DNA from: Escherichia phage vB_EcoS-UDF157lw
Sequence record: OQ243221
Length of the DNA stretch: 46,604 nucleotides
Reading direction: 5' to 3' (one strand)
Part shown: piece after piece, positions 45 through 46,604 of the stretch
How the letters are laid out: each line of letters opens with the position of its first letter
Numbering within the stretch: the first letter of the stretch is position 1
Position numbers and translations under genes: made by a program
Notes under the pieces: generated by a model
Database searches by the model: none
Seen by the model: the letters and a program-made list of their open reading frames with translations, nothing else
Told to the model about the DNA's origin: nothing

Positions 45-235
45 TTTATATACGCGTAGTCCGCTGTCTACCGATTGTCGACCGTATCCACATTTACAAT
101 TTATACGCCTTGATACAATCCATATACACTAAAATATCCTTATATATAAAGTACTTAGACTATTATTATTATTATATATAGTATTATGTATATATAGCGT
201 ATCATCTGTACGCTACTATATAGGTTGGTTTGCTT
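45..235. repeat. AT-rich non-coding block homologous to 27079-27270 (direct repeat, diverged)
   Basis: See partner; contains TATACGC-type repeats at 47-54, 101-108, 198-205 (inverted) and an ATTATTATTATTAT tract. Confidence 0.6.
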
Positions 236-435
236 AAATTTCTATTTTTATTCCTACACTGTAGGAATTGTACTACCTTGTAGGAAAATATAAGGGGATA
301 TAGCTAGAACCCCCTCATCTATATGTAGACGCACGTAGACGCCTGTACACACCCAGCAACGATGCGGCATGCAGGGCAAAAAGCGTATCAATTTTAAAAT
401 AAACAAAAAAATACATTTATAGACACGTAAATCTT

Positions 436-459: not shown

Positions 460-493
460 AGGCAACAAACAACAATCAACGAGAGGAATCATC

Positions 494-1036
494 ATGAGCA
501 AAACGACCTTAGGTGAAGTAATTCGATTCATGGCTAAAAAGGCACTCCAGTCAGAAGATAAGGAGTTTAAGGTTCCAGTTCGAGATATTTACCGACAAAT
601 TAGAGGTCATGATTACCCGGAAATGGAGACTGATGATAAAACCGGGGATATTATCAACCTTGGAGAGCGGAAGTTGAGTGAGTTAAAGAACTCATACATT
701 CATAATACATTGTCACGAATGAGAGAGTTGCGTGAGGCTAAGTATATCGCCCGTTATCAATTCATCTGGATTGATGCGGATGGTGAAGATACCACGCCCC
801 GCCAGTATGATGGCGATGGTGCTGATAAATACCTGCTAATCCATCTCACCGAGGGGGTTAAGGAGCCAAAAGCAAAACAAAGAGAGAAAGAAGAAAAGGA
901 GCGGGCTGTTATTGAGAAGTTCAAATCTCGCTTGCTTAAGTTATCACCTAACGTACTGGATTTTGAAGGTGATGAGCTGACTGGCGCAGTTAAGGCTATC
1001 CGCATGTATCAAGAGATGATCAAGGAGTTTAACTAA
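494..1036 (+). CDS. Hypothetical early protein (180 aa), charged/Lys-Glu-rich C-terminal half
   Basis: ORF with GAGAGGA RBS 7 nt upstream; first gene after the AT-rich leader; no motif recognised. Confidence 0.6.
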   Translation: MSKTTLGEVIRFMAKKALQSEDKEFKVPVRDIYRQIRGHDYPEMETDDKTGDIINLGERKLSELKNSYIHNTLSRMRELREAKYIARYQFIWIDADGEDTTPRQYDGDGADKYLLIHLTEGVKEPKAKQREKEEKERAVIEKFKSRLLKLSPNVLDFEGDELTGAVKAIRMYQEMIKEFN

Positions 1037-3770: not shown

Positions 3771-3846
3771 GTTCTGCTGGCGTAACAGGATAACGCAGAG
3801 ACCTCCTAAGTCTCAGTTACTGGTTCGAGTCCAGTGCGGAACACCA
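3771..3846 (+). tRNA. tRNA-Arg (anticodon CCU, reads AGG)
   Basis: Hand-folded cloverleaf: acceptor GTTCTGC/GCGGAAC (one G-U), D-arm GCGT/ACGC with GG in loop, anticodon stem GAGAC/GTCTC with loop CTCCTAA (U33, CCT, A37), T-arm ACTGG-TTCGAGT-CCAGT, discriminator A, encoded CCA. Confidence 0.85.
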
Positions 3847-10529: not shown

Positions 10530-12074
10530 ATGGCTTTAGAGTTTATGGAAGTTGTAGCTAAGACTTATGGCGACCTGGAGAGGCTAGTAAAGGCAAAAAT
10601 GCTAGAAGGATGGATGCCATTTGATAGCTTAATTGACAATAGATTTACTATCGCAATTGTTATGGTTAAGGGTAGTGATGCGCAGCTTACCGACTTTAGG
10701 ATTCTCGGTGATAGCACTAGAGTTAAATTAATAAGCAAGGCTAACAAATTAATTGCTGATGACCCTGAGTGGGAGGTTTTCGGTCACCCTCAAATATTTG
10801 GCGCTGACGATTACATAGTTTCATTATCAAAAGGCTTTAAGGGAACTACTGGTAGGGATGGCATGGCTGGCCCGCAAGGACCGCAAGGACCGCGCGGCGA
10901 AGTTGGCCCAGAAGGTCCGCAGGGTCCAAGGGGTGACGATGGCGCTGATGGGGAAAAGGGTGAGCGTGGAGCAGTAGGCCCGCAAGGACCAATTGGCCCA
11001 CAGGGTATTCAGGGTCCACAGGGAGTTCAAGGGCCAGCTGGATTAAAGGGCGATAAAGGTGATAAGGGTGATGTTGGCCCACAGGGACCACAAGGATTAA
11101 AAGGTGATACTGGAGAGAAAGGCGACCCTGGAGAAGTTGGCCCTGCTGGTTTAACATTCCGTGGTCAGTGGGTTCCTGGCACTGGTTATACAAAAGACGA
11201 TACCGTAGTTTATAACGGATCAACTTACTTTGCGGTTAATGATATTGCAGCTGATGAGGAGCCAGGTGTATCACCTTTGTGGGTGGTTCTTGCCGCTCAA
11301 GGCACGAAAGGTGACAAGGGTGATAAAGGCGACCCTGGAGATATCGGACCTCAAGGGGAGAAGGGTGATACTGGACCTCAAGGTCCGAGAGGTATTCAGG
11401 GTCCGCAAGGTATTCAGGGGTTAACAGGTGAGCAAGGTCCGCAAGGTGAGCAGGGGCCGCAAGGGATTGTTGGGCCGACTGGACCGCAAGGGCCAAAAGG
11501 TGACACCGGACCTCAAGGTATTCAAGGGCCGCAAGGCATCAGGGGACTTACTGGGCCGATAGGACCACAGGGACCGCAGGGAGAGAAGGGCGAAAAGGGA
11601 GATAAAGGGGAAAAAGGCGAAACTGGTGCAACCGGACCACAGGGTCCAGCGGGTCAAAATAATACAAATAATCCAGTTTATACAACTCAACTTACCGTAT
11701 CTACAAGCTACTCAGCTATAGCCATACCAAATAACCCTGGTGTATCTTTTACAATCAGGAGGGTTGGTAATAACATTGAGTACTCTTTTACAGGCAACTC
11801 AATTCCAGGAAGGTATTTTGATGTTGAGGTTGTAAACTTTCCATCAGCTGACGTAGTTAAAAGATACCAGTCAAATCAGACAATTTCAGGTACAAATAGG
11901 TATGTTGTAGGTGATCCTGCTGGTTATACTGGCGGTGGATACAAAAGGATTCAATTCTCAGCTAGAGATTGGGGGGATAAAAACATTATAATGATTGATG
12001 TTTTTCACCTTCAGCGCCCAACTGATACTAGTTTTAGCATCGCAATTAGGATTGAGACATTCAAGCTGCCATAA
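10530..12074 (+). CDS. Collagen-like repeat protein with embedded carbohydrate-binding-like motif (514 aa); putative fibre/decoration
   Basis: Two blocks of uninterrupted Gly-X-Y triplets (about residues 110-205 and 265-385) separated by [26 protein letters not shown]...PLWVV, which resembles CBM5/12 chitin-binding-type motifs; distinct N- and C-terminal globular domains. Confidence 0.85.
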
Positions 12075-12153: not shown

Positions 12154-13098
12154 ATGACTATTAAGCTAGATGCTTTCGAGCAGAACAAAATCACCGAACA
12201 CCTGCGTAACATGGGTGTTGAAAAAGCTGATGCAGCTGGCATTTGGACCATCAAACAGCTGACTCAGACGCTTAACCGTAACTACGATCGCGAATATTCT
12301 GAAACATCTGTAGTTAACCTGTTCCCGGTCACTAACGAAATTGGCGCTTACGCTAAATACTTCGAATACGGCGAAATGGATGGTGTTGGCTTAGCTCAGA
12401 TTGTAGCTGATTATTCAGATGATTTGCCGCTGGTTGATGCACTGATGCAAGAGAAGCAAGGTAAGGTGTTCCGTTTTGGTAATGCATTCCTGGTTTCCAT
12501 CGATGAGATTGCGGCTGGCGCAGCTACTGGTCAATCACTGTCTTCTCGCAAGCAGGCTCTTGCATTCGAAGCTCATGACAACCTGCTTGATAAGCTGGTT
12601 TGGAAAGGCTCCGCACCTCACGGCATTAAGTCTGTATTCGATTACGACAACGTAAACCAGGTAGTTCCAAGCGGCGCATGGACTACAGCACAGACTGCTT
12701 ACGCTGACGTTAATAGCCTGCTGGATATTATCGAAACAGCAACCCAAGGCATCCATCGAGCTAACAGGCTGCTTCTTCCGGCATCCGCTCGTCGAGTAAT
12801 GCAAACTCTGGTCCCGAATACTGGTATTAGCTACTTTGAGTTCTTTGCCCGTAACAACAATGGCGTACAGGTGGAGTTCCTGCAACTCCTTGACAACTAC
12901 GATGGCGCAAACGGCAAGGCTGCAATTGCTTATGAGTACGACCCATTGAACATGAGCATTGAGATTCCAGAAGCTACTCACGTCCTTCCAGCTCAACCGA
13001 AGGATTTGCACTTCAAGTTTCCTGTAACCTCCAAGTCTACTGGCCTGATTATCTACCGACCTCTGACCGTTGCAGTAATGAAAGGTATCACCTTCTAA
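12154..13098 (+). CDS. Major capsid protein (314 aa)
   Basis: Size, position after scaffold, dedicated promoter and strong downstream terminator (high-expression signature). Confidence 0.7.
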   Translation: MTIKLDAFEQNKITEHLRNMGVEKADAAGIWTIKQLTQTLNRNYDREYSETSVVNLFPVTNEIGAYAKYFEYGEMDGVGLAQIVADYSDDLPLVDALMQEKQGKVFRFGNAFLVSIDEIAAGAATGQSLSSRKQALAFEAHDNLLDKLVWKGSAPHGIKSVFDYDNVNQVVPSGAWTTAQTAYADVNSLLDIIETATQGIHRANRLLLPASARRVMQTLVPNTGISYFEFFARNNNGVQVEFLQLLDNYDGANGKAAIAYEYDPLNMSIEIPEATHVLPAQPKDLHFKFPVTSKSTGLIIYRPLTVAVMKGITF

Positions 13099-25762: not shown

Positions 25763-25787
25763 AGCCCCTTTCGGGGCTTTTTCTTTT
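25763..25787. terminator. Bidirectional terminator between J and the convergent leftward pair
   Basis: AGCCCC-tttc-GGGGCT hairpin followed by TTTTTCTTTT on the plus strand. Confidence 0.65.
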
Positions 25788-26748
25788 AGTAGAAGTTGGG
25801 AATAAATGGAAGTGCCATTGATATGTTTGTATCAAATGGGAATTGCGCGCCAGTTTGAGTTGAATAGTTACCTATAACAGTTCCTGGGACGGCTCTAACT
25901 GAACCTCCAGACATGCAAACACCCTTGTATCGTAAGTTATTATATCCACCAGTGACTCTAGTTGTCGCTCCGCATCTAAGTATTGGGAAGAACCCACCAT
26001 TCACCGACTGGTAACCATTATTAATCTGCATAAATCCACTTAGAACAAATGGCCTCCTGATGCTAGAGAAAACTATCTGCCCAGCGCTGTTTGATATCGT
26101 TAAACCCGGACCAGCTACTGGAGGTGTATTATTGAAAATAACTAACTGAACGTAAGTACTTGCAGCAACATCATCAATCCCATTGTATGTTATATCCCTA
26201 CACCATATCGTACTACCATCACTTTCAAGGGATACGTTTGGGTTATCCCATTTACCAAAAGGAATGCCGCCAACTGGCAATGATGCAGAGCCATTAACCT
26301 GGATGCCACCAACCCAAGCAGCAGTCATTAATCTGGAATTGCTTGATATCGCTGTAAAGTCAGTCGAGTTCTCAACAAGGACACCGGGGCTTGATTGTGA
26401 TGATGCTGGTAAAATCTCAAAGCACTGACCGCCAAACTGCAATATGCGACCATTAGCGCCGTTAAAGTTACTTAATGTAATCCTTCCAACCCCATCATTA
26501 ACCTTCGAGAACCCATTCATGTAATAAACTTCTGGTATAACATCATATGCATCAACATAAACAGCCTGAGTTGGCAGGCAGAATGCTGTTGAGCCAGGAG
26601 TCATAGTCAGACCGAAATCCCATGATGATGCTGGTGAGCTTAACCCGCTAGTGTTTATTGAACCAGTCACGGCTGGAACTCTCAAGCCAGCTGTGATTTC
26701 CATTGCTGGCCTTCCGTCATTCAAATCTATCAAGATACCTTGAGGCAT
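25786..26748 (-). CDS. Hypothetical beta-rich protein (320 aa), co-transcribed with Cor-like lipoprotein
   Basis: ATG overlaps the upstream stop (TAATG) with AAGGAG RBS; Gly/Ser/Asn/Thr-rich, no signal peptide. Confidence 0.55.
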   Translation of the reverse strand: MPQGILIDLNDGRPAMEITAGLRVPAVTGSINTSGLSSPASSWDFGLTMTPGSTAFCLPTQAVYVDAYDVIPEVYYMNGFSKVNDGVGRITLSNFNGANGRILQFGGQCFEILPASSQSSPGVLVENSTDFTAISSNSRLMTAAWVGGIQVNGSASLPVGGIPFGKWDNPNVSLESDGSTIWCRDITYNGIDDVAASTYVQLVIFNNTPPVAGPGLTISNSAGQIVFSSIRRPFVLSGFMQINNGYQSVNGGFFPILRCGATTRVTGGYNNLRYKGVCMSGGSVRAVPGTVIGNYSTQTGAQFPFDTNISMALPFIPNFY

Positions 26749-26993
26749 TATTTCCACTCCTTTGAGCCGTGATCTGCAACTGAGCCGCCGTAGCCTCCAC
26801 CAACCTTTGACTCAATGCCAGCATAACGAATATCAACCTCTCCAGCTGCAACAATAACACCACCCTTCCATTTAGCTACGCATACACCAGAGGCCTGAGT
26901 TGCACACCATCCGTCAGGTCGCGGGCCAGAAGAACAACCTACTGTCATGATTACTGCTGCTGCGATGATTGCTGATTTGATGAAGTTAGTCAT
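26748..26993 (-). CDS. Small lipoprotein, Cor-like superinfection-exclusion candidate (81 aa)
   Basis: N-terminal signal peptide with lipobox-like TVGC ([22 protein letters not shown]); location downstream of tail fibre genes as for cor in T1/phi80-type phages. Confidence 0.5.
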
Positions 26994-27017: not shown

Positions 27018-27077
27018 TCGTTTCGATGGAGTAACTATAGCAAAGGCTTCTGCTGGAGTCTTTAGCAAATCGTGCTA
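27018..27077 (-). promoter_or_regulatory. Composite promoter-like element on minus strand: TAGCACgatTTGCTAAA, 23 nt, TGcTATAGT, leader CATCGAAACGA
   Basis: Reverse complement of 27018-27077 read directly; drives the lipoprotein operon. Confidence 0.5.
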
Positions 27078-27078
27078 T

Positions 27079-27270
27079 TTGATATACGCGTAACCGATGT
27101 AACTCGATGTATACAATCTCATACGCGGAAAATTGTATACGCTTTTTACGCGAAGATACGCATTAGTTACACTATAGAATCCTTATATAATAAGGGTTTA
27201 GAGTAATTATTATTATTACTATATTTGTTTGTATATAGTGTAACTACTCTCTATGGTTATGTTGGTGTGT
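27079..27270. repeat. AT-rich non-coding block homologous to 45-235, with GATACGC-type iterons and a (TTA)n tract
   Basis: Shared blocks such as atatacgcgta, atccttatata, ttattattattat, gtatatag, ggtt..gtttg with window positions 45-235, same orientation. Confidence 0.6.
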
Positions 27271-27435
27271 TTTTCTAAAAGACTATGTTTGACTTCCTGT
27301 TAAGGAGGAGATGCATATAGATATAGATAGGGTGCAATTGTGGTGGATACATTGGTTACAAGAGTTACAGCCAGTGCTGGTGCGGTTTAGAAGGTAGCGA
27401 ACCGTATTTATGTGCTTTTTACACCGATATACAGA

Positions 27436-27478
27436 TAGCACGAATAATCAAAACTGATTCTTCCTGATTGGTTATAGT
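27436..27478 (+). promoter_or_regulatory. Degenerate composite promoter-like element: TAGCACgaaTAATCAAAA, 22 nt, TATAGT, upstream of Rha-like gene
   Basis: Half-motif conserved (TAGCAC); TATAGT at 27473-27478. Confidence 0.4.
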
Positions 27479-27488
27479 GCACTCACCG

Positions 27489-27512
27489 GCAGCAGTGGTG
27501 CTGCTTTTGATG
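27489..27512 (+). promoter_or_regulatory. Leader hairpin plus U-run (attenuator-like) upstream of Rha-like gene
   Basis: GCAGCA-gtgg-TGCTGC followed by TTTTGATG, between the putative promoter and the start codon. Confidence 0.35.
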
Positions 27513-27578
27513 CAAAAAAATGCACCACAAAATCCGGGAGTGAAAATAATTCAACCCCAAAAACGAGAGATGATAGGT

Positions 27579-28289
27579 ATGAATCTGATTAATATTGATG
27601 AAAACGTAACCATGAGCAGCCTTGAGATTGCTGAATTGACCGGGAAGCGTCACGATAACGTAGTAAGGGATATTAGAGAAATGCTGAATGATAATGAGAT
27701 ATGCTCAGGATTTAGCCAATCTCACTCCTCAAATTTGAGGAGTGAAATTCAAAATGAATCTCGCGGCTCAAATGTGGACCGCCAGATTAAACACCCATTT
27801 GAATCTGAGTACAAAAACTCAAGAGGCCAAACTCAGCCATGCTTCAACTTACCATATCGTGAAACCATGATTTTGATGGTTGGTTACAACAGAAAGGTAG
27901 CCGCAAAGATTGTTGACCGCTGGCTACACCTTGAGCGGGAAAACAAGCTCCTTAAAGAGCACATGAAGAAGATGGTTTCACTTGATGAGGTTAAGGTTTA
28001 CAAAGTTGAGGCGGCATCAGCAAAGGCTGCACAGCACAGAGCTGAGGATAACTATTACGCAATTGAGAAGTTCATGTTTAAGAACATGGATAAGTGCGAA
28101 AATCCTGCAGAACTTGATGAGCAATACTTCGATGTTAAATTCGAGTCAAATCGTTACCATGACTCTCAAGAGTTGGTTTACAAGTACCAGGCTCAGCTTG
28201 AGGTTGCTTGCGAGAAGTTAAAGGCTAAAGATGATCTGATTGCCAATCTGGTGCATAAAGGCGAACCGCTTAAGCTTGGTAAAAAGTAA
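27579..28289 (+). CDS. Rha-family phage regulatory protein (237 aa from ATG 27579)
   Basis: N-terminal motif SSLEIAELTGKRHDNVVRDIREML typical of Rha/antirepressor-type proteins; coiled-coil C-terminus. Track start 27468 spans the leader hairpin and is rejected. Confidence 0.65.
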   Translation: MNLINIDENVTMSSLEIAELTGKRHDNVVRDIREMLNDNEICSGFSQSHSSNLRSEIQNESRGSNVDRQIKHPFESEYKNSRGQTQPCFNLPYRETMILMVGYNRKVAAKIVDRWLHLERENKLLKEHMKKMVSLDEVKVYKVEAASAKAAQHRAEDNYYAIEKFMFKNMDKCENPAELDEQYFDVKFESNRYHDSQELVYKYQAQLEVACEKLKAKDDLIANLVHKGEPLKLGKK

Positions 28290-28322
28290 TCAGTAAACAA
28301 AAACGCTTCCAGTACAGGAAAC

Positions 28323-28364
28323 AAAAATGTTGACTGTACGGTCAATAAAAATGTTGACCGTTAA
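28323..28364 (+). promoter_or_regulatory. Tandem AAAAATGTTGAC repeats with near-palindrome TTGACTGTACGGTCAA (operator-like)
   Basis: Read directly in the 150-bp intergenic region upstream of the 28442 gene. Confidence 0.35.
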
Positions 28365-28441
28365 CTAATAGGCAAAACCAATTGGATAAACTTAGCTACG
28401 GATGTCATAGTTAAACCACATAAACAGAGAGAGATAGAAAA

Positions 28442-28636
28442 ATGGCATACTTCATTATTCAAGAGCGAAATAACCCTATTTTCGGAACATGTTACTACTG
28501 TGTAGATGGCTCAGGTTACACAAGCAATAAATCAGAGGCAGCAAGATTTGAGACAAAGCAGGAAGCTATTGAATACGCCCACGTGACAGATGAGGAGCTT
28601 GGTTCAGTAATGAAGATTATTAAGGTGAAGGAATAA
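28442..28636 (+). CDS. Hypothetical protein (64 aa)
   Basis: ORF with RBS agagagag; upstream of the exonuclease. Confidence 0.5.
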   Translation: MAYFIIQERNNPIFGTCYYCVDGSGYTSNKSEAARFETKQEAIEYAHVTDEELGSVMKIIKVKE

Positions 28637-28639
28637 ATC

Positions 28640-29608
28640 ATGAGCTTCAAGGTTTACACTAGCGACGAGTTAACCAACGAAGCCTACCACAAGGAGTCAG
28701 ACCATGTGTCTGGCTCTGGTCTGGCTCACATCTTCTCAACTTGCCCCGCTGCTTATAAGTTTGCAGAGCATGATGATAGCAATAAGGCGTTAAAGTTCGG
28801 TACATTAGCCCACACGGTTATTCTTGAAAACTATGTATTCGATGCGACTTACTATCGCCAGCCAGCGCAAGAAGAGTTTGAGGATCTGATTACTAGCAAG
28901 ACTGCTTTGGCAACTCGATTGAAGTCGATGGGTATTGCTGGAACATCTGGTAAGGATTATCCAGAATTAATGGAGATTCTGGCGCTGAGCGGTGAATCAC
29001 TTAACGTATGGTGGGATATTCAGCGCTCTAGCGAGGTTAAAGCGAACGGTCGCGAGATTGTATCAGCTAAAGACTTTGACACAGTACATGCGATGCGAGA
29101 GGTGCTGTGCGGCATTCCTGCATACAATGCGATAGTGAACAGTAAAACCGCTCAGCGAGAGTTATCAATCTTCGGTGAGATTAACGAGTGCGGCGTTAAG
29201 GTTCGTCTTGACCATGTCGATGTCGTTGATGATGTAGTTTATATCCGTGACTACAAGACGACTAGCGACGCATCTCCATCTGGATTTGGGAGATTGGCCT
29301 TCAAGCATGGTTACTTGCTAAAAATGGCGCTTCAGCATGATTTGTTTGTTCGCGCCTTTAATGAGAAGCGTCGAGTTGTTGTTCAGCTTCTTTGCCAGGA
29401 AAAGAAAAGCCCATTCCTTCCAATGTGCTACACGATAACAAAAGAGCACTTAAAGGTTGGTAGATTGCAATACATGAGCGCCCTATCCACATACAAGCAA
29501 TGCAAGAAACTTGATATTTGGCCTGGTTACGGATTTGGCGAAACAGAGATGGAACTGCAAGTTCCTGAGTATGAGATGAAGAAGTACGAAGATAGCACGA
29601 ATAGCTAA
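28640..29608 (+). CDS. Recombination exonuclease, PD-(D/E)XK family (RecE/YqaJ/lambda-Exo-like, 322 aa)
   Basis: Motif LDHVDVVDDVVYIRDYKTT (D..D..K-type nuclease core); adjacent to an Erf-family annealase. Confidence 0.65.
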   Translation: MSFKVYTSDELTNEAYHKESDHVSGSGLAHIFSTCPAAYKFAEHDDSNKALKFGTLAHTVILENYVFDATYYRQPAQEEFEDLITSKTALATRLKSMGIAGTSGKDYPELMEILALSGESLNVWWDIQRSSEVKANGREIVSAKDFDTVHAMREVLCGIPAYNAIVNSKTAQRELSIFGEINECGVKVRLDHVDVVDDVVYIRDYKTTSDASPSGFGRLAFKHGYLLKMALQHDLFVRAFNEKRRVVVQLLCQEKKSPFLPMCYTITKEHLKVGRLQYMSALSTYKQCKKLDIWPGYGFGETEMELQVPEYEMKKYEDSTNS

Positions 29609-29635
29609 AACGGTATTAAATCGATGGGGTATAGT
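29593..29635 (+). promoter_or_regulatory. Composite promoter-like element variant: TAGCACgaaTAGCTAAA, 20-22 nt, TATAGT, leader CATCGACAACAAAGAGAG
   Basis: Overlaps the exonuclease stop; hairpin CGATGGGGTA-TAG-TTACCTCATCG spans the -10. Confidence 0.45.
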
Positions 29636-29664
29636 TACCTCATCGACAACAAAGAGAGATAGAA

Positions 29665-30312
29665 ATGAAGACTTCAGAGAGTAACAAAACAGTTTTACAG
29701 GCACTATTTAAAGCTCGCACAGGATTTGCGAAGGCAGCAAGAGACAAGCAGAACAGTCACCTAAAGAATAGATACGCAACACTTGATTCCATGCTGGAGG
29801 CTGTAATCCCAGCACTTGATGATAACGACTTAATGATTATGCAGAGCATGTTAGAAACATCAACTGCTGACAATCTTAACGTAGAGACGACTCTCTATCA
29901 CGTTTCTGGCGAGTGGGTTAGCTTCTTCATGATTATGCCAATCGTTAAGAAAGACCCGCAAGGAGTAGGATCTGCATTTACATACGCTCGGCGTTACTCA
30001 CTAGCGGCGGCTTTGGGAATTAGTCAGTCTGACGATGATGCGCAGATGGCAGTTAAGAGCGTCAAGGACTGGAAGCGCGATATTGAGAAGGCAGAAACTC
30101 GAGAAGAGCTTATCGAAATCTACAAATCATGCAAATCACAAGCTGACACGGCAACGTGGGGTATAGTAGAGAAAGCGATAATAGATAAACAAGCAGAGAT
30201 CAAAATGGCTTCCGCAAGTGGCTTCAACCCAGCTAAGCCAAAGGAAGTTGCTAAAAAAGTTGCAAACGCAACTAATGAAGTAGTAGAATCACAATCAATC
30301 GAGCAGTTCTAA
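29665..30312 (+). CDS. erf: Erf-family single-strand annealing protein (215 aa)
   Basis: Conserved Erf-like stretch LYHVSGEW...FTYARRYSLAAALGISQSDDD; paired with the exonuclease. Confidence 0.8.
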   Translation: MKTSESNKTVLQALFKARTGFAKAARDKQNSHLKNRYATLDSMLEAVIPALDDNDLMIMQSMLETSTADNLNVETTLYHVSGEWVSFFMIMPIVKKDPQGVGSAFTYARRYSLAAALGISQSDDDAQMAVKSVKDWKRDIEKAETREELIEIYKSCKSQADTATWGIVEKAIIDKQAEIKMASASGFNPAKPKEVAKKVANATNEVVESQSIEQF

Positions 30313-30359
30313 ACTAAACGGGGCTTCGGCCCCAAAATCAAACGAGAAGAGAATATAAA

Positions 30360-30782
30360 ATGCATACTTTAACAGGCGTAATTCGTAAGGCTCCTTTCAC
30401 TAAAGATGGTCAGAACGCCAAGGGTAACTGGAAGATGTACGCTATCGAAATGAGCGAATCTTATAAAACACGAGATGGAGAGCGTAAGTATAGTAATTAT
30501 CGAGCTACCTTCTTTGCTAGCGAGGCGCAAATTAGCTGGTATGACGAAGCATTTCAGGAAGGAAAAGTTATCTCTGTGAGCGGCGATTCATTAGCGGTTA
30601 ATGAGCGCGAACATAATGGCAAGACATATATTACGCTTGAGTTGCAGAATCCTCGATTGATGTTTAGTCAGCGAGGAGGTGAATCAGAACAGCAGCAGCA
30701 GCGACAACAAGCTCAACAGCAACAGAGACAGCAGCCGCAGCAACAAAGCCGATTTAGTGATGAAGATGATATTCCGTTTTAA
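30360..30782 (+). CDS. ssb: Single-stranded DNA-binding protein (140 aa)
   Basis: OB-fold-like N-terminal region, Gln-rich linker, acidic tail ending DEDDIPF. Confidence 0.85.
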   Translation: MHTLTGVIRKAPFTKDGQNAKGNWKMYAIEMSESYKTRDGERKYSNYRATFFASEAQISWYDEAFQEGKVISVSGDSLAVNEREHNGKTYITLELQNPRLMFSQRGGESEQQQQRQQAQQQQRQQPQQQSRFSDEDDIPF

Positions 30783-33608: not shown

Positions 33609-34532
33609 CTATGAATGCTTATCTATCAGATCTTGCGGGTTATATAACCTTCTTTCAAGCCCCATCTTGAAATTGCCACCTTTAGGTATTACGACTTTTA
33701 GACCTCTATCATCAGCAACATAAAGCGACTCCTTTTCATCAGCTAAGCAAGCTATCCTGCACTCTTTATTCCTGAGTTCATAAGCAACCATTTCTAAGTT
33801 GTGGTGAGTTAGGCAGTCGTAAGTTGTCCTTTTTGTGCATGCCGATACATGTAGTGCGTTAATCCAGCCAACAGTGAGGTAGATAGCGCCATCACTACAT
33901 TTACTTACCGGAACAACCGAGCCGCGAGTGTAGTCTTTTGCGAGATATGACTCATTACCCTCTTCATCTATAAACTTTACGTTACAAGGCTCATCTGATA
34001 AACCATCCTCGTAAACCATAAAGCATTGCTCGGCTATAATTTCTTCTCCAGACCCCTTTATTCCTATTTTGTATTCCCGTTCAGTAATAATTGCTTCAAA
34101 TCTCGTAAGCTGTGTCATTTCTACAGACTTGGTGCGAGATATTACCTTCTCGATTGATTCAATGGATGCCTGAGCGCCAAAGTTATATCTCTGAACTCGG
34201 CTCGCTGCTTTGTTTGCCTTCACTATGATTTCGACGGGAGTCAAATTAAGCCAGTCGCCAAGTAAATTTATAGCTTCCGCAAATCTAAGGCCGGAACATT
34301 TCATAACCCATCCTATTCCTGAGTCACTGCCGCACTTAGAGCAAACTGCGGCCCCATTACCTTTTTCGCTTCCTATTTCGTCTGTAAACCTGAATCTGTC
34401 AGTACCAAAGCAATAAGGGCACGGCCCGTGCTTCTTGCTAAGGTGTCTATCATTCCAACCAAGCTCCTTTGCATAAAATGATTTCCACAATCCAGCCATT
34501 TTAGGTATTACTTCATTCTTGTCGTAATTCAT
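33609..34532 (-). CDS. Putative DNA primase (zinc-ribbon type, 307 aa)
   Basis: CPYCFG...CSKCG zinc-binding motif near the N-terminus; acidic motif YVADDRG; located in the replication module. Confidence 0.5.
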   Translation of the reverse strand: MNYDKNEVIPKMAGLWKSFYAKELGWNDRHLSKKHGPCPYCFGTDRFRFTDEIGSEKGNGAAVCSKCGSDSGIGWVMKCSGLRFAEAINLLGDWLNLTPVEIIVKANKAASRVQRYNFGAQASIESIEKVISRTKSVEMTQLTRFEAIITEREYKIGIKGSGEEIIAEQCFMVYEDGLSDEPCNVKFIDEEGNESYLAKDYTRGSVVPVSKCSDGAIYLTVGWINALHVSACTKRTTYDCLTHHNLEMVAYELRNKECRIACLADEKESLYVADDRGLKVVIPKGGNFKMGLERRLYNPQDLIDKHS

Positions 34533-34584: not shown

Positions 34585-35058
34585 TTACTCTTTAGCTTTT
34601 CGTGCTTCTTCTCTTTCTTTCTTAACCTTTCGCCATGATTTACGCTGCGGCTTGGTTGCTAACTCAGCTTCTGTAACAACTCGAAGCATCTGACGCTTCT
34701 TGCATCGCAGTGTTAGAGGCTTGCCGTTACCGTCGAACTGTAAATCAGGTCGGCAGAATGTAGCCCTGAACCCCTCTCCAGTTCGCTTATATCGATTATG
34801 CGCAAGCTGTGCGCCGCGAGCTGAAATCATTCCCCGCTTACACCATTCTTCTACAGCCTGGCGCGTAACCTTTAGCTGCTTAGCTAGATTGGCCTTGCTG
34901 CCGTAGAAGTCCAATACAATCTCAAGGCGCGCCCTTAATCCCGCTCTCACTTCATCCTTTAGTACATAGTAACCTGATGGACGCTTACGCGGCTTCTTGT
35001 CTTCTGTGCGAATTGTTCCGTTGTTACCATTAAGAGTACGCTTGTCAATTGAATCCAT
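34585..35058 (-). CDS. Helix-turn-helix DNA-binding protein (Cro/YdaS-like, 157 aa)
   Basis: Motif GSKANLAKQLKVTRQAVEEWCKRGMIS; basic Lys/Arg-rich C-terminus; divergent from the helicase operon. Confidence 0.55.
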   Translation of the reverse strand: MDSIDKRTLNGNNGTIRTEDKKPRKRPSGYYVLKDEVRAGLRARLEIVLDFYGSKANLAKQLKVTRQAVEEWCKRGMISARGAQLAHNRYKRTGEGFRATFCRPDLQFDGNGKPLTLRCKKRQMLRVVTEAELATKPQRKSWRKVKKEREEARKAKE

Positions 35059-42576: not shown

Positions 42577-44160
42577 TTACCCCAGCAGCCGTGGATTGAT
42601 ATATACCTTGTCACCAATCAGGCAGGTATAGTTTTTATCATCAAGCATCGGGAGTAAGTGGTCTTTAATTTTAGCCATAACACCAGCCTGTGACTCGAAA
42701 GGTCGAACCTTACGCGCAGCTTCATAAAGTGAACGCAAACCCACAACTCCTTTACTGTTCTTGCCTTGCTTGATAAGGATATCAATTAACTTGTTCATCT
42801 CAGCGTTATCGCCAGCATGACCAGCTGCGTTAGCAGAAGATAAGTAAGTCTTGCTAAGTTCTTCAAACATCAATAAAGCCTCCTGCATCGTTTCCAGTCC
42901 AATCTCCCTGGACTTCTGCGGACTACCGCCATTTGGATTAAACCAGTTACGTATGGTGTGAAGAACGGCAGCAAGGCGAATAACCTGTTTATCCATTTTA
43001 CCTAGTGCGCCACGGAGCATTGTGTGTGAATACTTGCCGCCATCCGCAAGGTGTGGCTCCATTTCCTGTCGAGCACGGTTAAGGTGCTTCATTGCTGAGT
43101 TACTAATAGTCAACTTCACATCTTGCTCACTCATAATTTCATGAACAAGACGGAAGTAATCAGCCTTCAACGCTCCGTCAATCGGCTCATATGTTGACTC
43201 GCCATTATCATCGACGAAAACACGCTCACCAAGGAATGACTTTTCACGCACAAGCAAGAAACGTTCGGATACACCAATACCGCGAGCACCAGCATTCATG
43301 ATTGCGACTATTGTTTCATCCTGCGCAATTACAGAAATACACCCCATAGCAATAAAGCTCATGTTGTTCTCTGCGTTCGCACGCGCGATAGATACGTTAC
43401 CAGCATCCCAGGCCTTAAGTACCAGTTCGCTGTTTGTTTTCTTTGTTCCATCACCATAGGTCATGCCCAGCAGTGAGTTGACGCTCGTCGCCTCATCCGA
43501 GATGACAGCGAAGCTACCCTGACGATGGTTAATGCGTGCCAGACCTTCAGGAGTAGTATCAGATACAGGGAATACGATGTCGCAAAGTTTCTCGAGCTTA
43601 TCTTCCAGCTCCTCCTTCTCCTCAAACAAACCAGCCATCTCAGAAGGCGACTTCTCCTGCTTCATTTCTTTAGCCAGAGCCGACAGCTTGGCCATAATCT
43701 TTTTACGGTCACGCTTACGCAGATCGTTTAGTCGCTCAGTCTCTGCAATCATTGGAGCAAGAGACAGCGAGTTAATGGCAGATTTACCAGTTGATGGAGG
43801 CTGGCTGGTCACTACATACAGTGATGTTGGTTGTTGAGTTCCGTGATACTCAACCGTAAAGCGACCTAACATAGCTGCCGAGATGCAACCAAGGAAGTGC
43901 ATATAAGCAGATGATTCAGGAAACTGAACAGAACGAGCAATGTTGCTTGATAGTTTGCCAACTACATCATAGTCGTTACCAAGCGAGATAACAGGATACT
44001 TGTCGCCAGTAGAATCAATCTCAACCGGAGCTTTCCAGAATGATGCGCTCTGGCGATAACCGTTCGCATTAATAGCAACACGTAAAGGAGGTAATCCATC
44101 CTGAGCGGCAACAGCCATTACTTGTTCAACAGTCAATTTGTCATCATTAAAATCAAACAT
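42577..44160 (-). CDS. Putative replication-associated P-loop NTPase (helicase/primase-associated, 527 aa)
   Basis: Deviant Walker A PPSTGKS and Walker B-like FAVISDEATS; RBS GAGAGAG before ATG 44160; N- and C-termini are paralogous to the 1036-1596 protein. Confidence 0.6.
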   Translation of the reverse strand: MFDFNDDKLTVEQVMAVAAQDGLPPLRVAINANGYRQSASFWKAPVEIDSTGDKYPVISLGNDYDVVGKLSSNIARSVQFPESSAYMHFLGCISAAMLGRFTVEYHGTQQPTSLYVVTSQPPSTGKSAINSLSLAPMIAETERLNDLRKRDRKKIMAKLSALAKEMKQEKSPSEMAGLFEEKEELEDKLEKLCDIVFPVSDTTPEGLARINHRQGSFAVISDEATSVNSLLGMTYGDGTKKTNSELVLKAWDAGNVSIARANAENNMSFIAMGCISVIAQDETIVAIMNAGARGIGVSERFLLVREKSFLGERVFVDDNGESTYEPIDGALKADYFRLVHEIMSEQDVKLTISNSAMKHLNRARQEMEPHLADGGKYSHTMLRGALGKMDKQVIRLAAVLHTIRNWFNPNGGSPQKSREIGLETMQEALLMFEELSKTYLSSANAAGHAGDNAEMNKLIDILIKQGKNSKGVVGLRSLYEAARKVRPFESQAGVMAKIKDHLLPMLDDKNYTCLIGDKVYINPRLLG

Positions 44161-44203
44161 TATTATCATCTCTCTCTAAATGCCCCCGAAGGGGCTTGAC
44201 TAT

Positions 44204-46025: not shown

Positions 46026-46205
46026 TCAAATAAATGGTAAACATTCGACGCAGCCAAGTCCATCGCAGCACAGAAATTCATCTTCTGACTGGAATTGCTT
46101 AGCCAAATCAATGTCCAGCTTTCCGCGCAGCACAAGGTTGGTGTAAACTTCGTTAAGTCCAATCAGTGCGCATTCGTGGCGCAAATCGTCTTTATCAATC
46201 TTCAT
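46026..46205 (-). CDS. Small Cys-rich hypothetical protein (59 aa)
   Basis: Hand-translated; C-terminal CCDGLGCVEC; start overlaps the upstream stop. Confidence 0.4.
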   Translation of the reverse strand: MKIDKDDLRHECALIGLNEVYTNLVLRGKLDIDLAKQFQSEDEFLCCDGLGCVECLPFI

Positions 46206-46389
46206 ACCGCTCTACCTCGAAGTTGTATACCATTACGTTTCTATCATGCTTGTTCTTTATCACCATTGACTCAAGCTCTTCGTATACAGCCACTACATTG
46301 TAAACACCACCAGGCTCAAGGCCGTAGAATTCGTATTCTTCATCGTCAAAACCATCCGTTTTACTTAGTGCTGTTATTTTTACCTTCAT
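46195..46389 (-). CDS. Hypothetical acidic protein (64 aa), first gene of the leftward operon
   Basis: RBS GAGGAG; promoter element immediately upstream. Confidence 0.5.
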   Translation of the reverse strand: MKVKITALSKTDGFDDEEYEFYGLEPGGVYNVVAVYEELESMVIKNKHDRNVMVYNFEVERYED

Positions 46390-46417
46390 ATCTATCTCCT
46401 CGTTGTTGATGAGTTTA

Positions 46418-46460
46418 CTATAGCCTTGCCATCCCCATTTTTCTTTAGCAAAAAGTGCTA
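46418..46460 (-). promoter_or_regulatory. Composite promoter-like element (minus): TAGCACtttttGCTAAA, 21 nt, TATAGT, leader CATCAACAACGAGGAG
   Basis: Reverse complement read directly; drives the leftward small-gene operon. Confidence 0.5.
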
Positions 46461-46604
46461 TTCGTCAGATTTATGGATTGTTGCAGGCATTGCGATGATT
46501 AGCATGACTATTACACATAAAGCAATATTTCATCGAGTGCAACAGGTTTATTGATTGTTGCCAGTTTGGCAATGATGGATGGATGGATTGAATGAAAGGA
46601 GGTT

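What the first reader, a model, noticed from the sequence alone, without database searches (positions are those of the whole stretch)
45..235. Two diverged direct copies of an about 190-bp AT-rich iteron-bearing block, each heading a major rightward transcription unit
Positions 45-235 and 27079-27270 share ordered blocks (atatacgcgta, accgat, atccttatata, ttattattattat, gtatatag) in the same orientation. Both contain several (G)ATACGC-type short repeats and a (TTA)n tract. Each sits in a roughly 500-bp non-coding region upstream of a long rightward gene series (494 onward and 27579 onward). Iterons plus an AT-rich tract are the signature of a replication origin or a regulator-titrating site; two copies 27 kb apart is unusual.
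Basis: seen in the sequence. Interest (0 to 1): 0.6.

Follow-up and report, generated by a model that had tools for sequence, protein, structure and literature searches.

The report
Twin origin-like iteron/AT-rich modules in T1-like phage
Two related non-coding DNA blocks in this T1-like phage genome each join short evenly spaced repeats to the most easily melted DNA of the genome, the classic look of a replication origin, so they point to where the never-mapped origins of the T1 phage family may lie.

Summary
Blocks 45-255 and 27079-27298 are each other's only strong match in the genome: local score 61-65 against about 22 for shuffles and 17±3.6 for other windows. The window is a complete Rogunavirus genome (T1-like, Drexlerviridae). 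Each block lies in a long divergent intergenic region. Each has four TAC(G/A)C repeats spaced 9, 10 and 11 bp apart, then about 65 bp of AT-rich DNA, then an inverted repeat unit. The two AT-rich cores are the least and second-least stable duplex stretches of the genome, and the same holds in T1. Both copies also exist in Rtp and phiEB49. T1, LF82-12, HazelMika and three metagenomic relatives keep the same layout but use lineage-specific repeat units. The phage encodes a DUF3987, MCM-like helicase with a C-terminal winged helix, the initiator type that binds such repeats at SaPI origins. SPP1 is a precedent for twin origins (oriL and oriR). My best reading, at about 0.5, is origin-type sites. 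The main rival is a repeat-controlled early promoter hub. The papers held here report no mapped origin for T1-like phages. Nothing was tested experimentally.

The parts
48..58 (+). Block A left-edge box ATATACGCGTA, with the palindromic core ACGCGT
   Evidence: This 11-mer occurs only here and at 27082. ATAC.CGT is invariant in all six aligned copies from the window, phiEB49 and Rtp.
93..132 (+). Block A phased repeats: TTTACAAT, ATACGCC, ATACAAT, ATACACT, with TAC at 95, 104, 114 and 125
   Evidence: The 9, 10, 11 bp spacing is identical to block B. The four TAC columns are invariant in alignment A3. Only one unit keeps the full TACGC, so this copy is degenerate.
133..196 (.). Block A AT-rich core, including (TTA)4: the least stable duplex of the whole genome
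   Evidence: Nearest-neighbour stability scan: rank 1 at 40, 60 and 100 bp windows, z 5.0-5.3.
197..213 (.). Block A right flank: inverted repeat unit GCGTAT (197-202) and GTACGC (208-213)
   Evidence: An inverted unit on the right flank is seen in most copies read in other phages; Rtp copy A has only a degenerate one.
27082..27092 (+). Block B left-edge box ATATACGCGTA
   Evidence: conserved in phiEB49 B and Rtp B.
27121..27173 (+). Block B repeats: ATACGCG (27121), then the phased series ATACGC, TTACGC, ATACGC, TTACAC with TAC at 27138, 27147, 27157 and 27168
   Evidence: This is the only chain of three or more TAC[GA]C at 9-11 bp spacing on either strand of the genome; 0.003 chains are expected per shuffled genome. 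Coordinates.
27174..27237 (.). Block B AT-rich core, including (TTA)4 and the promoter-like TTTAGA-17-TATATT at 27197-27225: the second least stable duplex of the genome
   Evidence: Stability scan: rank 2 at all window sizes, z 4.2-4.4. Promoter-like site. The core sequence TATATAATAAGGGTTTAG..ATTATTATTA..TATATT is conserved in HazelMika and LF82-12.
27238..27244 (-). Block B right-flank inverted repeat unit GTGTAAC, the reverse complement of GTTACAC at 27166-27172
   Evidence: TGTAAC is conserved at this position in phiEB49 B and Rtp B.
42577..44169 (-). Candidate origin-binding replicative helicase: DUF3987, homologue of T1 gp9, 530 aa, MCM-like AAA+ core plus C-terminal winged helix (residues 454-524)
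   Evidence: Pfam DUF3987, E 2.5e-42. AlphaFold2 model with pLDDT 89 and a C-terminal H-E-H-H-E-E topology. Foldseek best hits are MCM2-7 and archaeal MCM, probability 1.0. Literature: PMC4889955.
33609..34532 (-). Primase with a primase-helicase type zinc ribbon, homologue of T1 gp24
   Evidence: Pfam Zn_Ribbon_Prim, E 3e-10. The T1 and Rtp annotations call the homologue a DNA primase, and the T1 annotation notes similarity to a prophage 'alpha replication protein'.
27058..27078 (-). Copy of the family-wide 21-nt repeat (ATAGCACnnnTTGnTAAA) directly abutting block B, upstream of the leftward lipoprotein gene. It is not part of the block.
   Evidence: the repeat family is described in PMC11447400.
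46441..46461 (-). Copy of the same 21-nt repeat at the left edge of region A, upstream of the leftward gene 46195-46389

Best explanation
The two blocks are paralogous copies of a non-coding module found across Drexlerviridae. Each has a left-edge ACGCGT box and four TAC(G/A)C repeat units spaced one helical turn apart. About 65 bp of the most easily unwound DNA in the genome follows, and then an inverted repeat unit. I read them as replication-origin-type sites. In the inferred mechanism, the phage's MCM-like DUF3987 helicase (42577-44169) recognises the phased repeats through its C-terminal winged helix. It assembles on both flanks of the AT tract, melts it and loads itself. The phage primase (33609-34532) then primes, and host DNA polymerase III extends. 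Copy A lies next to the pac-type repeats and at the head of the leftward operon that contains the helicase gene. It corresponds to the site that, in other lineages, lies directly upstream of the helicase gene, so it would be the primary origin. Copy B lies at the head of the Rha, exonuclease VIII, Erf and SSB operon. It would be a second origin, or an initiator-bound site that helps the switch to recombination-dependent concatemer synthesis, as proposed for SPP1 oriR. Shown here: the anatomy, its statistics, its conservation, and the helicase fold. Inferred: binding, melting, initiation, and the division of roles between the copies.
For: 1. The two copies are homologous well beyond chance.
2. 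The phased chain of TAC[GA]C is unique in the genome, against 0.003 expected per shuffled genome. The 9, 10, 11 bp spacing is identical in both copies. The four TAC columns are invariant in six copies from three phages.
3. The AT cores are ranks 1 and 2 for lowest duplex stability in this genome (z 5.0-5.3 and 4.2-4.4; the next is at most 3.6). They are also ranks 1 and 2 in T1 (z 5.8 and 5.5; next 3.75) and within the top 3 in phiEB49.
4. The same layout is found in Rtp, phiEB49, T1, LF82-12, HazelMika and three metagenomic relatives, but with lineage-specific repeat units. These are TACGC, GTGTAACAG, AACTACAG, TTGTTAT, ATGCCC and GGGGTAA/TTACCCC, often inverted across the AT core. In L016, TGGGGAA occurs only at the AT core.
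5. In L016, L018 and L019 the module lies directly upstream of a small gene followed by the DUF3987 helicase gene.
6. The DUF3987 protein models with high confidence as an MCM-like ATPase with a C-terminal winged helix, in agreement with PMC4889955. Its winged helix diverges faster (46% mean identity) than the ATPase core (65%).
7. SaPI origins have penta- or hexanucleotide iterons on both sides of a central AT-rich region, in opposite orientation. They are bound by the winged helix of a self-loading helicase (PMC9371898).
8. [quoted passage not shown]
9. T1 and LF82-12 have separate canonical sigma-70 promoters next to the downstream gene, so the AT block is not needed as that gene's promoter.
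10. Sigma-70-like sites in the two regions are no more frequent than in shuffles.
11. The held papers on T1-like phages report no origin.
Against: There are no experimental data on replication initiation or protein binding.

The AT core contains a conserved promoter-like TTTAGA-17/18-TATATT in five of six copies, so a purely transcriptional role fits much of the same anatomy.

Copy A in this genome has only one intact TACGC unit in its phased series.

In T1, LF82-12 and HazelMika the region-B repeat units differ from the region-A units. One initiator may therefore not bind both sites in those phages.

In this genome the helicase gene is 2.2 kb from copy A rather than adjacent to it.

The link between repeat type and winged-helix sequence is confounded by phylogeny.

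Foldseek TM-scores to MCM are low (0.33-0.37), although the probabilities are about 1.

GC skew follows transcription direction and gives no independent signal for an origin.
Confidence: 0.5

Rival explanations
1. The blocks are regulated early-promoter hubs, not origins. Host RNA polymerase fires rightward from the promoter-like TTTAGA-17-TATATT (B) or cTTAGA-17-TATAGT (A) inside the AT tract. The AT-rich DNA upstream acts as an UP element. The phased repeats at about -45 to -100, together with the inverted unit at about +6 to +12, are operators for a phage regulator such as the Cro-like HTH protein at 34585-35058 or Rha. A host winged-helix regulator that binds tandem 10-bp sites is another possibility. 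The regulator would switch early transcription on or off, possibly by looping the DNA.
For: The promoter-like site at 27197-27225 scores 9/12. Equivalent hexamers with a 17-18 bp spacer are present in window A, phiEB49 B, Rtp A, Rtp B and LF82-12 B (my reading). Both blocks have the same orientation relative to the rightward genes in every phage examined. Both regions are divergent transcription start regions. A terminator-like hairpin at 27484-27510 and a small ORF at 27311-27397 could define a short transcript starting in block B. The AHP42, EC3a and ETEP102 records annotate predicted promoters inside the equivalent blocks. In SPP1, AT-rich islands mark transcriptional control regions as well as origins.
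Against: Sigma-70-like sites are not enriched over shuffles: 3 against 2.7 expected, and 2 against 3.2 expected. The -35-like hexamer lacks the key G. The spacer is 15 bp in HazelMika and 24 bp in phiEB49 A, which would inactivate a promoter. Separate gene-proximal promoters exist 200-350 bp downstream. In T1 that promoter is a near-consensus TTGACT-16-TATAAT, and in the window a TG-extended TATAGT lies at 416-444. The exact (TTA)n spacer sequence is conserved across subfamilies, which is not expected of a promoter spacer. A promoter alone does not explain why lineage-specific repeat units flank the AT core on both sides in inverted orientation. Finally, a promoter inside an origin is common, so this rival is only partly exclusive of the best explanation.
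Confidence: 0.3
2. The blocks belong to the DNA packaging or recombination machinery. They would be pac-related terminase binding sites, or conserved module-boundary sequences that act as recombination hot spots.
For: The T1 record marks its terminal redundancy as starting at position 1, inside region A. The SU57 paper places the terminal repeat and pac of T1-like phages in this untranslated region. The JK06 GenBank record ends inside block B. The genes flanking block B differ between phages (Rha present or absent; lipoprotein or Cor) while the block is kept, as expected at a mosaic boundary. In Rtp the right halves of the two copies look more alike than the left halves.
Against: The physical end of T1 lies about 100-120 bp to the left of its repeat block. 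It falls inside a different conserved repeat family, GATTGTTGC...GCAATGAT (window 46476-46578), which is absent from region B. Two pac sites 27 kb apart would give two packaging series, which I am not aware has been reported for T1. Orthologous copies are more alike than paralogous ones (window B against phiEB49 B 0.94, against Rtp B 0.81; window A against window B 0.80; Rtp A against Rtp B 0.75). There is therefore no strong ongoing gene conversion between the copies.
Confidence: 0.07
3. The blocks are a non-functional relic of a duplication, or the resemblance arises by chance between AT-rich intergenic sequences.
For: Both blocks are AT-rich and low in complexity. Copy A has degenerate repeats.
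Against: The alignment is 11-16 standard deviations above dinucleotide shuffles, and block A is the only strong match in the genome. Both copies are retained at syntenic positions in phages of different subfamilies, and block B's core matches 144 phage records. Specific columns are invariant across the six aligned copies.
Confidence: 0.02

Closest known systems
Bacillus phage SPP1 oriL and oriR (origin-binding protein gp38)
   Same: SPP1 is also a virulent, pac-type siphovirus with two distant sites of similar organisation: direct repeats next to an AT-rich unwinding element. One site lies in a long non-coding region. AT-rich islands are the strongest compositional feature of that genome. The second site is proposed to trigger recombination-dependent replication using an exonuclease, an annealase and an SSB (PMC6316719). 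Here, block B heads exactly such an operon.
   Different: There is no sequence or protein homology. SPP1 uses gp38, the gp39 loader and a DnaB-type helicase, whereas this phage has a DUF3987 MCM-like helicase and a separate primase. SPP1 oriL lies inside gene 38, whereas both sites here are intergenic. Binding and firing are shown for SPP1 but not here.
SaPI (staphylococcal pathogenicity island) replication origins with self-loading Rep helicases
   Same: Both have penta- or hexanucleotide iterons, a central AT-rich region, iterons on both sides pointing in opposite directions, and an initiator that is a hexameric helicase with a C-terminal winged-helix domain (PMC9371898). This matches the TAC(G/A)C units, the roughly 65-bp AT core, the inverted unit on the right flank, and the modelled winged helix of the DUF3987 protein.
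   Different: The SaPI origin lies immediately downstream of rep. Here the helicase gene is 2.2 kb from copy A, and in other lineages the module is upstream of the gene. Here most units sit on the left flank and only one or two on the right. The hosts are Gram-positive satellites versus a virulent coliphage. No SaPI Rep chain appeared among the top Foldseek matches; MCM proteins did.
Satellite phage P4 ori plus crr (alpha protein); from my own knowledge, not checked here
   Same: Two cis-acting sites several kb apart carry the same short iteron, which is bound by the origin-recognition domain of a primase-helicase. The T1 annotation notes similarity of its primase to a prophage 'alpha replication protein' and to the phi-R73 DNA primase.
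   Different: P4 alpha is a single fused polypeptide whose helicase belongs to a different superfamily (my recollection; not checked here). The P4 iteron is TGTTCACC, not TACGC. No homology of the DNA sites was found or tested.
Phage lambda ori (O protein iterons plus an AT-rich region)
   Same: It has four direct repeats next to an AT-rich region that unwinds.
   Different: The lambda iterons are four tandem repeats lying within a lambda replication gene; from my own knowledge they are 19-bp inverted-repeat units inside gene O. The TLS authors looked for such repeats in a T1-like genome and found none. The units here are 5-7 bp and intergenic.
The 21-nt intergenic repeat of T1-like phages (aaATAGCACnnnTTGnTAAAA)
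   Same: It belongs to the same phage family and is also intergenic. Copies directly abut both regions (27058-27078 and 46441-46461).
   Different: It is a different sequence with 14 copies, always about 76 nt upstream of a start codon and oriented with transcription. The blocks are not members of this family.

Membership tests
Iteron-type replication origin (generic) | Several direct repeats of a short motif, spaced in phase with the DNA helix | tested here: met
   B has TAC at 27138, 27147, 27157 and 27168, the only such chain in the genome, against 0.003 expected. A has TAC at 95, 104, 114 and 125 but with degenerate 3' halves. Period-10 repeats are also present in Rtp, T1, phiEB49 and LF82-12.
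Iteron-type replication origin (generic) | An adjacent AT-rich DNA unwinding element | tested here: met
   The cores are ranks 1 and 2 for lowest nearest-neighbour stability in the window and in T1, and within the top 3 in phiEB49. Actual unwinding was not tested.
Iteron-type replication origin (generic) | Specific binding of a cognate initiator to the repeats | not testable with these tools
   This needs EMSA, footprinting or ChIP. Only a candidate is identified: the DUF3987 helicase with a winged helix.
Iteron-type replication origin (generic) | Replication initiates at the site, or the site supports replication in cis | not testable with these tools
   This needs marker-frequency sequencing or a plasmid origin assay. 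GC skew is uninformative because it follows transcription.
SaPI-type origin for a self-loading MCM-like helicase | Penta- or hexanucleotide iterons on both sides of a central AT-rich region, in opposite orientation | tested here: met
   The window has left-flank TAC(G/A)C units and right-flank inverted units GTGTAAC (B) and GCGTAT (A). The pattern is clearer in L016, L018, L019 and LF82-12. In the window only one or two units lie on the right flank, fewer than the at least two per side described for SaPIs.
SaPI-type origin for a self-loading MCM-like helicase | The initiator is a hexameric helicase with a C-terminal winged-helix domain | tested here: met
   The AlphaFold2 model has pLDDT 89, and residues 454-524 form an H-E-H-H-E-E unit. 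The best structural matches are MCM proteins. The literature agrees. The oligomeric state was not tested.
SaPI-type origin for a self-loading MCM-like helicase | The origin lies immediately downstream of the rep gene | tested here: not met
   The helicase gene 42577-44169 is 2.2 kb from region A. In L016, L018 and L019 the module lies immediately upstream of a small gene plus the helicase gene, not downstream.
SPP1-type twin origins | Two distant sites of similar organisation (direct repeats plus an AT-rich unwinding element) | tested here: met
   compare PMC6316719.
SPP1-type twin origins | Homologous replication machinery (gp38 organiser, gp39 loader, DnaB-type helicase) | tested here: not met
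   Pfam finds DUF3987, a primase zinc ribbon and a RadD-like SF2 helicase. None of the ten proteins scanned is a DnaB-type helicase.
Sigma-70 promoter | -35 and -10 hexamers with a 16-18 bp spacer, kept among relatives | tested here: inconclusive
   B scores 9/12 at 27197-27225 and A scores 8/12 by my count. Sites are not enriched over shuffles. The spacer is 17-18 bp in five copies but 15 bp in HazelMika and 24 bp in phiEB49 A. No transcription start data exist.
pac site (packaging initiation) | It coincides with the physical genome end and is present once per genome | tested here: not met
   The T1 end lies in separate GATTGTTGC/GCAATGAT repeats to the left of its block. Those repeats are absent from region B. 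The blocks occur twice per genome.
21-nt repeat of T1-like phages | Match to ATAGCACnnnTTGnTAAA about 76 nt upstream of a start codon | tested here: not met
   A pattern search finds 14 copies, none inside either block. Copies flank the blocks at 27058-27078 and 46441-46461.
Known structured RNA (Rfam) | Match to any Rfam covariance model at its gathering score | tested here: not met
   The only hit in the window is tRNA-Arg at 3771-3843.

The most novel reading that the evidence does not exclude
T1-like phages (Drexlerviridae) replicate from a pair of homologous origins. In each, the winged helix of an MCM-like DUF3987 helicase reads one-turn-spaced pentanucleotide repeats flanking the most meltable DNA of the genome. 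The copy next to pac fires. The copy at the head of the exonuclease, Erf and SSB operon acts as a second origin, or as an initiator-bound fork barrier that switches replication to the recombination-dependent concatemer mode. This would be an SPP1-like logic that evolved independently with archaeal/eukaryotic-type helicase machinery in a classic coliphage.
Probability: 0.25. Interest if true: 0.75.

Novelty: new member of a known kind. Interest (0 to 1): 0.62.

Why it matters
T1 is one of the original T phages, yet the held papers on T1-like phages report no mapped origin. The 2024 TLS re-annotation states that no origin-type repeats were found anywhere in that genome, and other papers offer only GC-skew guesses. 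This analysis gives two precise, testable candidate sites of about 170 bp each, a candidate initiator, and a family-wide pattern of lineage-specific repeats around a conserved AT core.

If confirmed, it would provide a bacterial-virus model for origin recognition and self-loading by an MCM-like helicase in E. coli. It would show how a phage without its own polymerase recruits the host replisome. It would also supply a defined origin for engineering T1-like phages, which are common therapy candidates and laboratory contaminants.

If the promoter rival is right instead, the blocks would be the main early control regions of the family, which are also undescribed.

Tried and rejected
- **GC and AT skew:** skew follows gene orientation and gives no origin signal.
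- **Rfam on the whole window:** nothing in the blocks.
- **Sigma-70 and terminator scans:** only weak promoter-like sites in the blocks, no more than in shuffles. They do not settle the promoter question.
- **pac hypothesis:** rejected for the blocks. The T1 end and the conserved GATTGTTGC/GCAATGAT repeats lie to the left of block A, and region B lacks them.
- **Concerted evolution between the copies:** an eyeball impression from the right halves of the Rtp copies was not borne out overall. Orthologues are more alike than paralogues.
- **DnaA box:** gTATCCACA at 84-92 matches 8 of 9 positions, but I saw no equivalent box at this position in Rtp, so I dropped it as an argument.
- **GATC clustering:** there is no GATC in either block.
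- **OmpR-like host regulator:** tandem 10-bp TTTAC/GTTACA half-sites resemble OmpR-type sites from memory. I kept this as a lead only and did not test it.
- **The search for related loci with the exonuclease VIII protein:** returned only six close relatives.
- **Files for scripting:** several fetched loci never appeared in the scripting folder, so some comparisons were made by reading sequence directly.
- **Papers not held:** the Rtp genome paper was not held and the T1 genome paper was not looked up, so I cannot exclude that either mentions these AT-rich regions.
- **PDB sequence search with the helicase:** no hits. Only the fold search was informative.
Full report
**What the window is.** The first 3 kb match Escherichia phages BECP10, JK06 and AHP42 at 97-98% identity, and Rogue1 at 87%. 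The window is therefore a complete, circularly permuted genome of a Rogunavirus, a T1-like siphovirus of the family Drexlerviridae. The gene order follows T1 and Rtp:
- small early genes, then terminase, head and tail genes, rightward from 494 to 25755;
- two leftward genes (25786-26993: DUF6453 and a lipoprotein);
- a rightward Rha, exonuclease VIII, Erf and SSB group (27579-30782);
- replication and lysis genes;
- a leftward group (46389 down to 42237) that includes a DUF3987 protein.

**Check of the observation.** The similarity is real.
- Local alignment of 1-493 with 27069-27578 scores 65, against 22.2±2.7 for 1000 dinucleotide shuffles (maximum 37). It aligns 125-255 with 27168-27298.
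- MAFFT also aligns the left parts, including TATATACGCGTA.
- Scanned against every 250-bp window of the genome on both strands, block B finds block A as its only strong match: 61, against a genome mean of 17.1±3.6 and a next independent best of 31.
- The 11-mers ATATACGCGTA and ATCCTTATATA occur only in the two blocks. ATACGC is enriched about 40-50-fold in each.
- Because the genome is permuted, non-coding region A is 46390-46604 plus 1-493.

**Setting.** Both blocks lie in the two long divergent intergenic regions of the genome.
- Region A lies between the leftward gene 46195-46389 and the rightward DUF7174 gene at 494.
- Region B lies between the leftward lipoprotein gene (start 26993) and the rightward Rha gene at 27579.
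- Each region is bounded on its left by a copy of the family-wide 21-nt repeat ATAGCACnnnTTGnTAAA (14 copies in the window). That repeat is already described for TLS, T1, Rtp and Rogue1, with unknown function (PMC11447400).
- Each region also has its own gene-proximal promoter-like element 200-350 bp to the right of the block.

**Anatomy.** Each block has four parts, from left to right.
- *Left-edge box.* ATATACGCGTA at 48 and 27082.
- *Phased repeats.* Four TAC(G/A)C-type units have TAC at 95, 104, 114, 125 (A) and 27138, 27147, 27157, 27168 (B), the same 9, 10, 11 bp spacing in both. B has a further ATACGCG at 27121.
- *AT-rich core.* About 65 bp at 133-196 and 27174-27237, containing (TTA)4.
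- *Inverted unit.* GCGTAT at 197 and GTGTAAC at 27238.

In B, the chain of three or more TAC[GA]C at 9-11 bp spacing is unique in the genome on either strand. Only 0.003 such chains are expected per shuffled genome. In A, three of the four units have lost the GC, so A is the more degenerate copy.

**Physical property.** In a nearest-neighbour duplex-stability scan of the whole genome, the two AT cores rank 1 and 2 as least stable at 40, 60 and 100 bp windows. Their z values are 5.0-5.3 and 4.2-4.4, and the next region reaches at most 3.6. The same holds in T1, where the AT cores of its two equivalent regions have z 5.8 and 5.5 against 3.75 for the next. In phiEB49 both cores are in the top three.

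**Conservation.**
- The core of block B (27083-27254) matches 144 phage records in 233 places, and many listed records show two places. Block A in recognisable form is limited to about five genomes.
- Direct reading shows both copies at syntenic positions in Rtp (Braunvirinae) and phiEB49 (Lindendrivevirus).
- In the six-copy alignment the left-edge box, the four TAC columns and C..TATATA..AA...TTTA...T.ATTATTATTATTA are invariant.
- Orthologues are more alike than paralogues. The duplication therefore predates the split of these subfamilies and is not being homogenised.
- T1 (Tunavirinae) keeps the layout in both regions. Region A has AAATTACGCC twice at period 10 next to a (TA)n-rich core. 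Region B has GTGTAACAG units on both sides of its core.
- LF82-12 has TACGCG twice at period 10 in region A. In region B it has AACTACAG twice at period 10 plus an inverted GTAGTT.
- HazelMika region B uses TTGTTAT/ATAACA.
- In three metagenomic relatives the DUF3987 proteins are 52%, 40-42% and 37% identical to the window's. There, the divergent region directly upstream of a small gene plus the DUF3987 gene again has a strongly AT-rich core. It is flanked on both sides, often in inverted orientation, by different units: ATGCCC/GGGCAT in L018 and GGGGTAA/TTACCCC in L016 and L019.

The constant feature is thus the layout and the AT core. The repeat unit turns over between lineages, as expected for sites that co-evolve with a sequence-specific binding protein.

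**A candidate binder.**
- The 530-aa product of 42577-44169 is a DUF3987 protein, the homologue of T1 gp9.
- A 39-sequence alignment gave a confident AlphaFold2 model (pLDDT 89, pTM 0.87). Its last 70 residues form a winged-helix unit, H-E-H-H-E-E.
- Foldseek against the PDB returns MCM2-7 and archaeal MCM chains as best matches (probability about 1, E down to 6e-6). TM-scores are low, 0.33-0.37.
- This agrees with Kazlauskas et al. 2016, who class DUF3987 as MCM-related SF6 replicative helicases with a C-terminal winged helix (PMC4889955). A DUF3987 protein has also been shown to be an active helicase (PMC11724360).
- The winged helix diverges faster than the ATPase core: 46% against 65% mean identity to the window protein. 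The segment ARKVKPFxGQAGV of the TACGC lineages reads KKVKPFSGIPQL in the GGGGTAA lineages. This is suggestive only, because any protein would co-vary with lineage.
- A separate primase (33609-34532), a RadD-like helicase and a Cro-like HTH protein are also encoded.

**Comparison with known systems.**
- SaPI origins consist of 6-12 penta- or hexanucleotide iterons split around a central AT-rich region and pointing in opposite directions. They are read by the C-terminal winged helix of a self-loading helicase (PMC9371898). This is the closest architectural match.
- SPP1, another virulent pac-type siphovirus, has two distant origins of similar organisation (direct repeats plus an AT-rich unwinding element), both bound by gp38. 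oriR is proposed to stall forks and trigger recombination-dependent replication (PMC6316719). Two copies are therefore not unprecedented. Block B sits at the head of the exonuclease VIII, Erf and SSB operon.
- P4 ori plus crr is a further two-site precedent, from my own knowledge.
- No homology to any of these DNA sites or to the SPP1 proteins was found. The resemblance is in how it would work, not in family membership.

**Rivals.**
- *Promoter hub.* The AT core carries TTTAGA-17-TATATT in B and equivalents in most copies. The inverted unit would lie just downstream of the start site, and a hairpin at 27484-27510 could end a short transcript. Against this as the sole function: such sites are no more frequent than in shuffles. 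The spacer is 15 bp in HazelMika and 24 bp in phiEB49 A. T1 and LF82-12 have separate canonical promoters next to the downstream gene. Repeats flank the core on both sides. A promoter embedded in an origin would fit both readings.
- *pac site.* I reject this for the blocks. The T1 record starts its terminal redundancy at position 1, about 100 bp to the left of its repeat block. That point falls within GATTGTTGC...GCAATGAT repeats, which the window also has at 46476-46578 and which region B lacks.
- *Chance or relic.* This is excluded by the statistics and the conservation.

**State of knowledge.** The held papers on T1-like phages either state that no origin or origin-type repeats could be found (TLS 2024, SU57 2020) or offer GC-skew guesses. 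The original T1 and Rtp genome papers were not available to me (the Rtp paper is not held; the T1 paper was not looked up), so prior mention of these AT-rich regions cannot be excluded.

**Verdict.** The blocks are a conserved, paralogous pair of modules combining phased repeats with an unwinding element. They are most likely origin-type sites for the phage's MCM-like helicase (confidence about 0.5). If true, this is a new member of a known kind (iteron plus unwinding-element origins; twin origins as in SPP1). It would make the long-open question of where T1-like phages start replication directly testable.

Noticed in passing
window 46476-46578 (also Rtp L002 46155-46219 plus 1-60; T1 L003 1-60; phiEB49 L004 about 470-590, minus strand): Conserved imperfect inverted repeats, GATTGTTGC followed after a few bases by (A/G)TTGC(G/A)ATGAT, occur two or three times to the left of block A in all four phages. 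The T1 record's terminal redundancy starts inside its copies, so they are a good candidate for the pac or terminase recognition site of T1-like phages.
   Followed up: partly
window: 14 sites, including 1580, 2423, 19900, 27078(-), 29592, 35071, 37467, 38152, 38838, 40390, 44466(-), 44664(-), 45626(-), 46461(-): This is the 21-nt repeat ATAGCACnnnTTGnTAAA. It is always oriented with transcription and is followed about 20-25 nt later by TATAGT and a CATCGAAACGA leader, often with a small hairpin in between. It is already described for TLS, T1, Rtp and Rogue1 with unknown function. The TTGCTA-to-TATAGT spacing of about 22 nt is too long for a standard sigma-70 promoter.
   Followed up: partly
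window 27311-27397 and 27484-27510: A small ORF of about 28 aa has a strong Shine-Dalgarno sequence (AAGGAGG) and lies between block B and the Rha gene. AHP42 annotates a 48-aa CDS at the equivalent position. A terminator-like hairpin with a T run follows just upstream of Rha. Together they could define a short transcript that starts in block B.
   Followed up: partly
window 251-267, 293-316, 327-343: Region A, to the right of block A, has three further features: a perfect palindrome TTCCTACAcTGTAGGAA, a GC-clamped hairpin AGGGG...CCCCCT, and a tandem direct repeat GTAGACGC twice, 10 bp apart. These may be further protein-binding sites. Their conservation was not examined.
   Followed up: no
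window 84-92: gTATCCACA matches 8 of 9 positions of the DnaA box consensus TTATCCACA, inside block A. phiEB49 A has TTAGCCACA at the equivalent place, and I saw no such box there in Rtp A.
   Followed up: partly
window 10878-11645, inside ORF 10530-12074: There are long runs of 9-nt-periodic GGN-NNN-NNN repeats encoding collagen-like Gly-X-Y tracts. They lie in a 514-aa ORF between the head-assembly genes and the presumed major capsid gene (12154-13098, assigned by synteny with Rtp and T1).
   Followed up: no
window about 28323-28365: A direct repeat AAAAATGTTGAC occurs twice, 24 bp apart, in the gap between the Rha gene and the next small gene. It could be two -35-like elements or an operator pair.
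   Followed up: no
JK06 GenBank record DQ121662 / NC_007291, end of record (equivalent to window 27092): The deposited linear JK06 sequence begins and ends inside block B, just after the ATATACGCGTA box. This may be an assembly or cloning break at a hard-to-clone AT-rich region rather than a physical end.
   Followed up: no
window 3771-3846: A tRNA-Arg gene (anticodon CCT) lies among the small early genes, as in related phages.
   Followed up: yes
phiEB49 L004 18577-18637: A third very AT-rich stretch (z about 5) lies between the anti-repressor gene and a small gene. I saw no phased repeats in it. The window has no equally unstable equivalent.
   Followed up: partly
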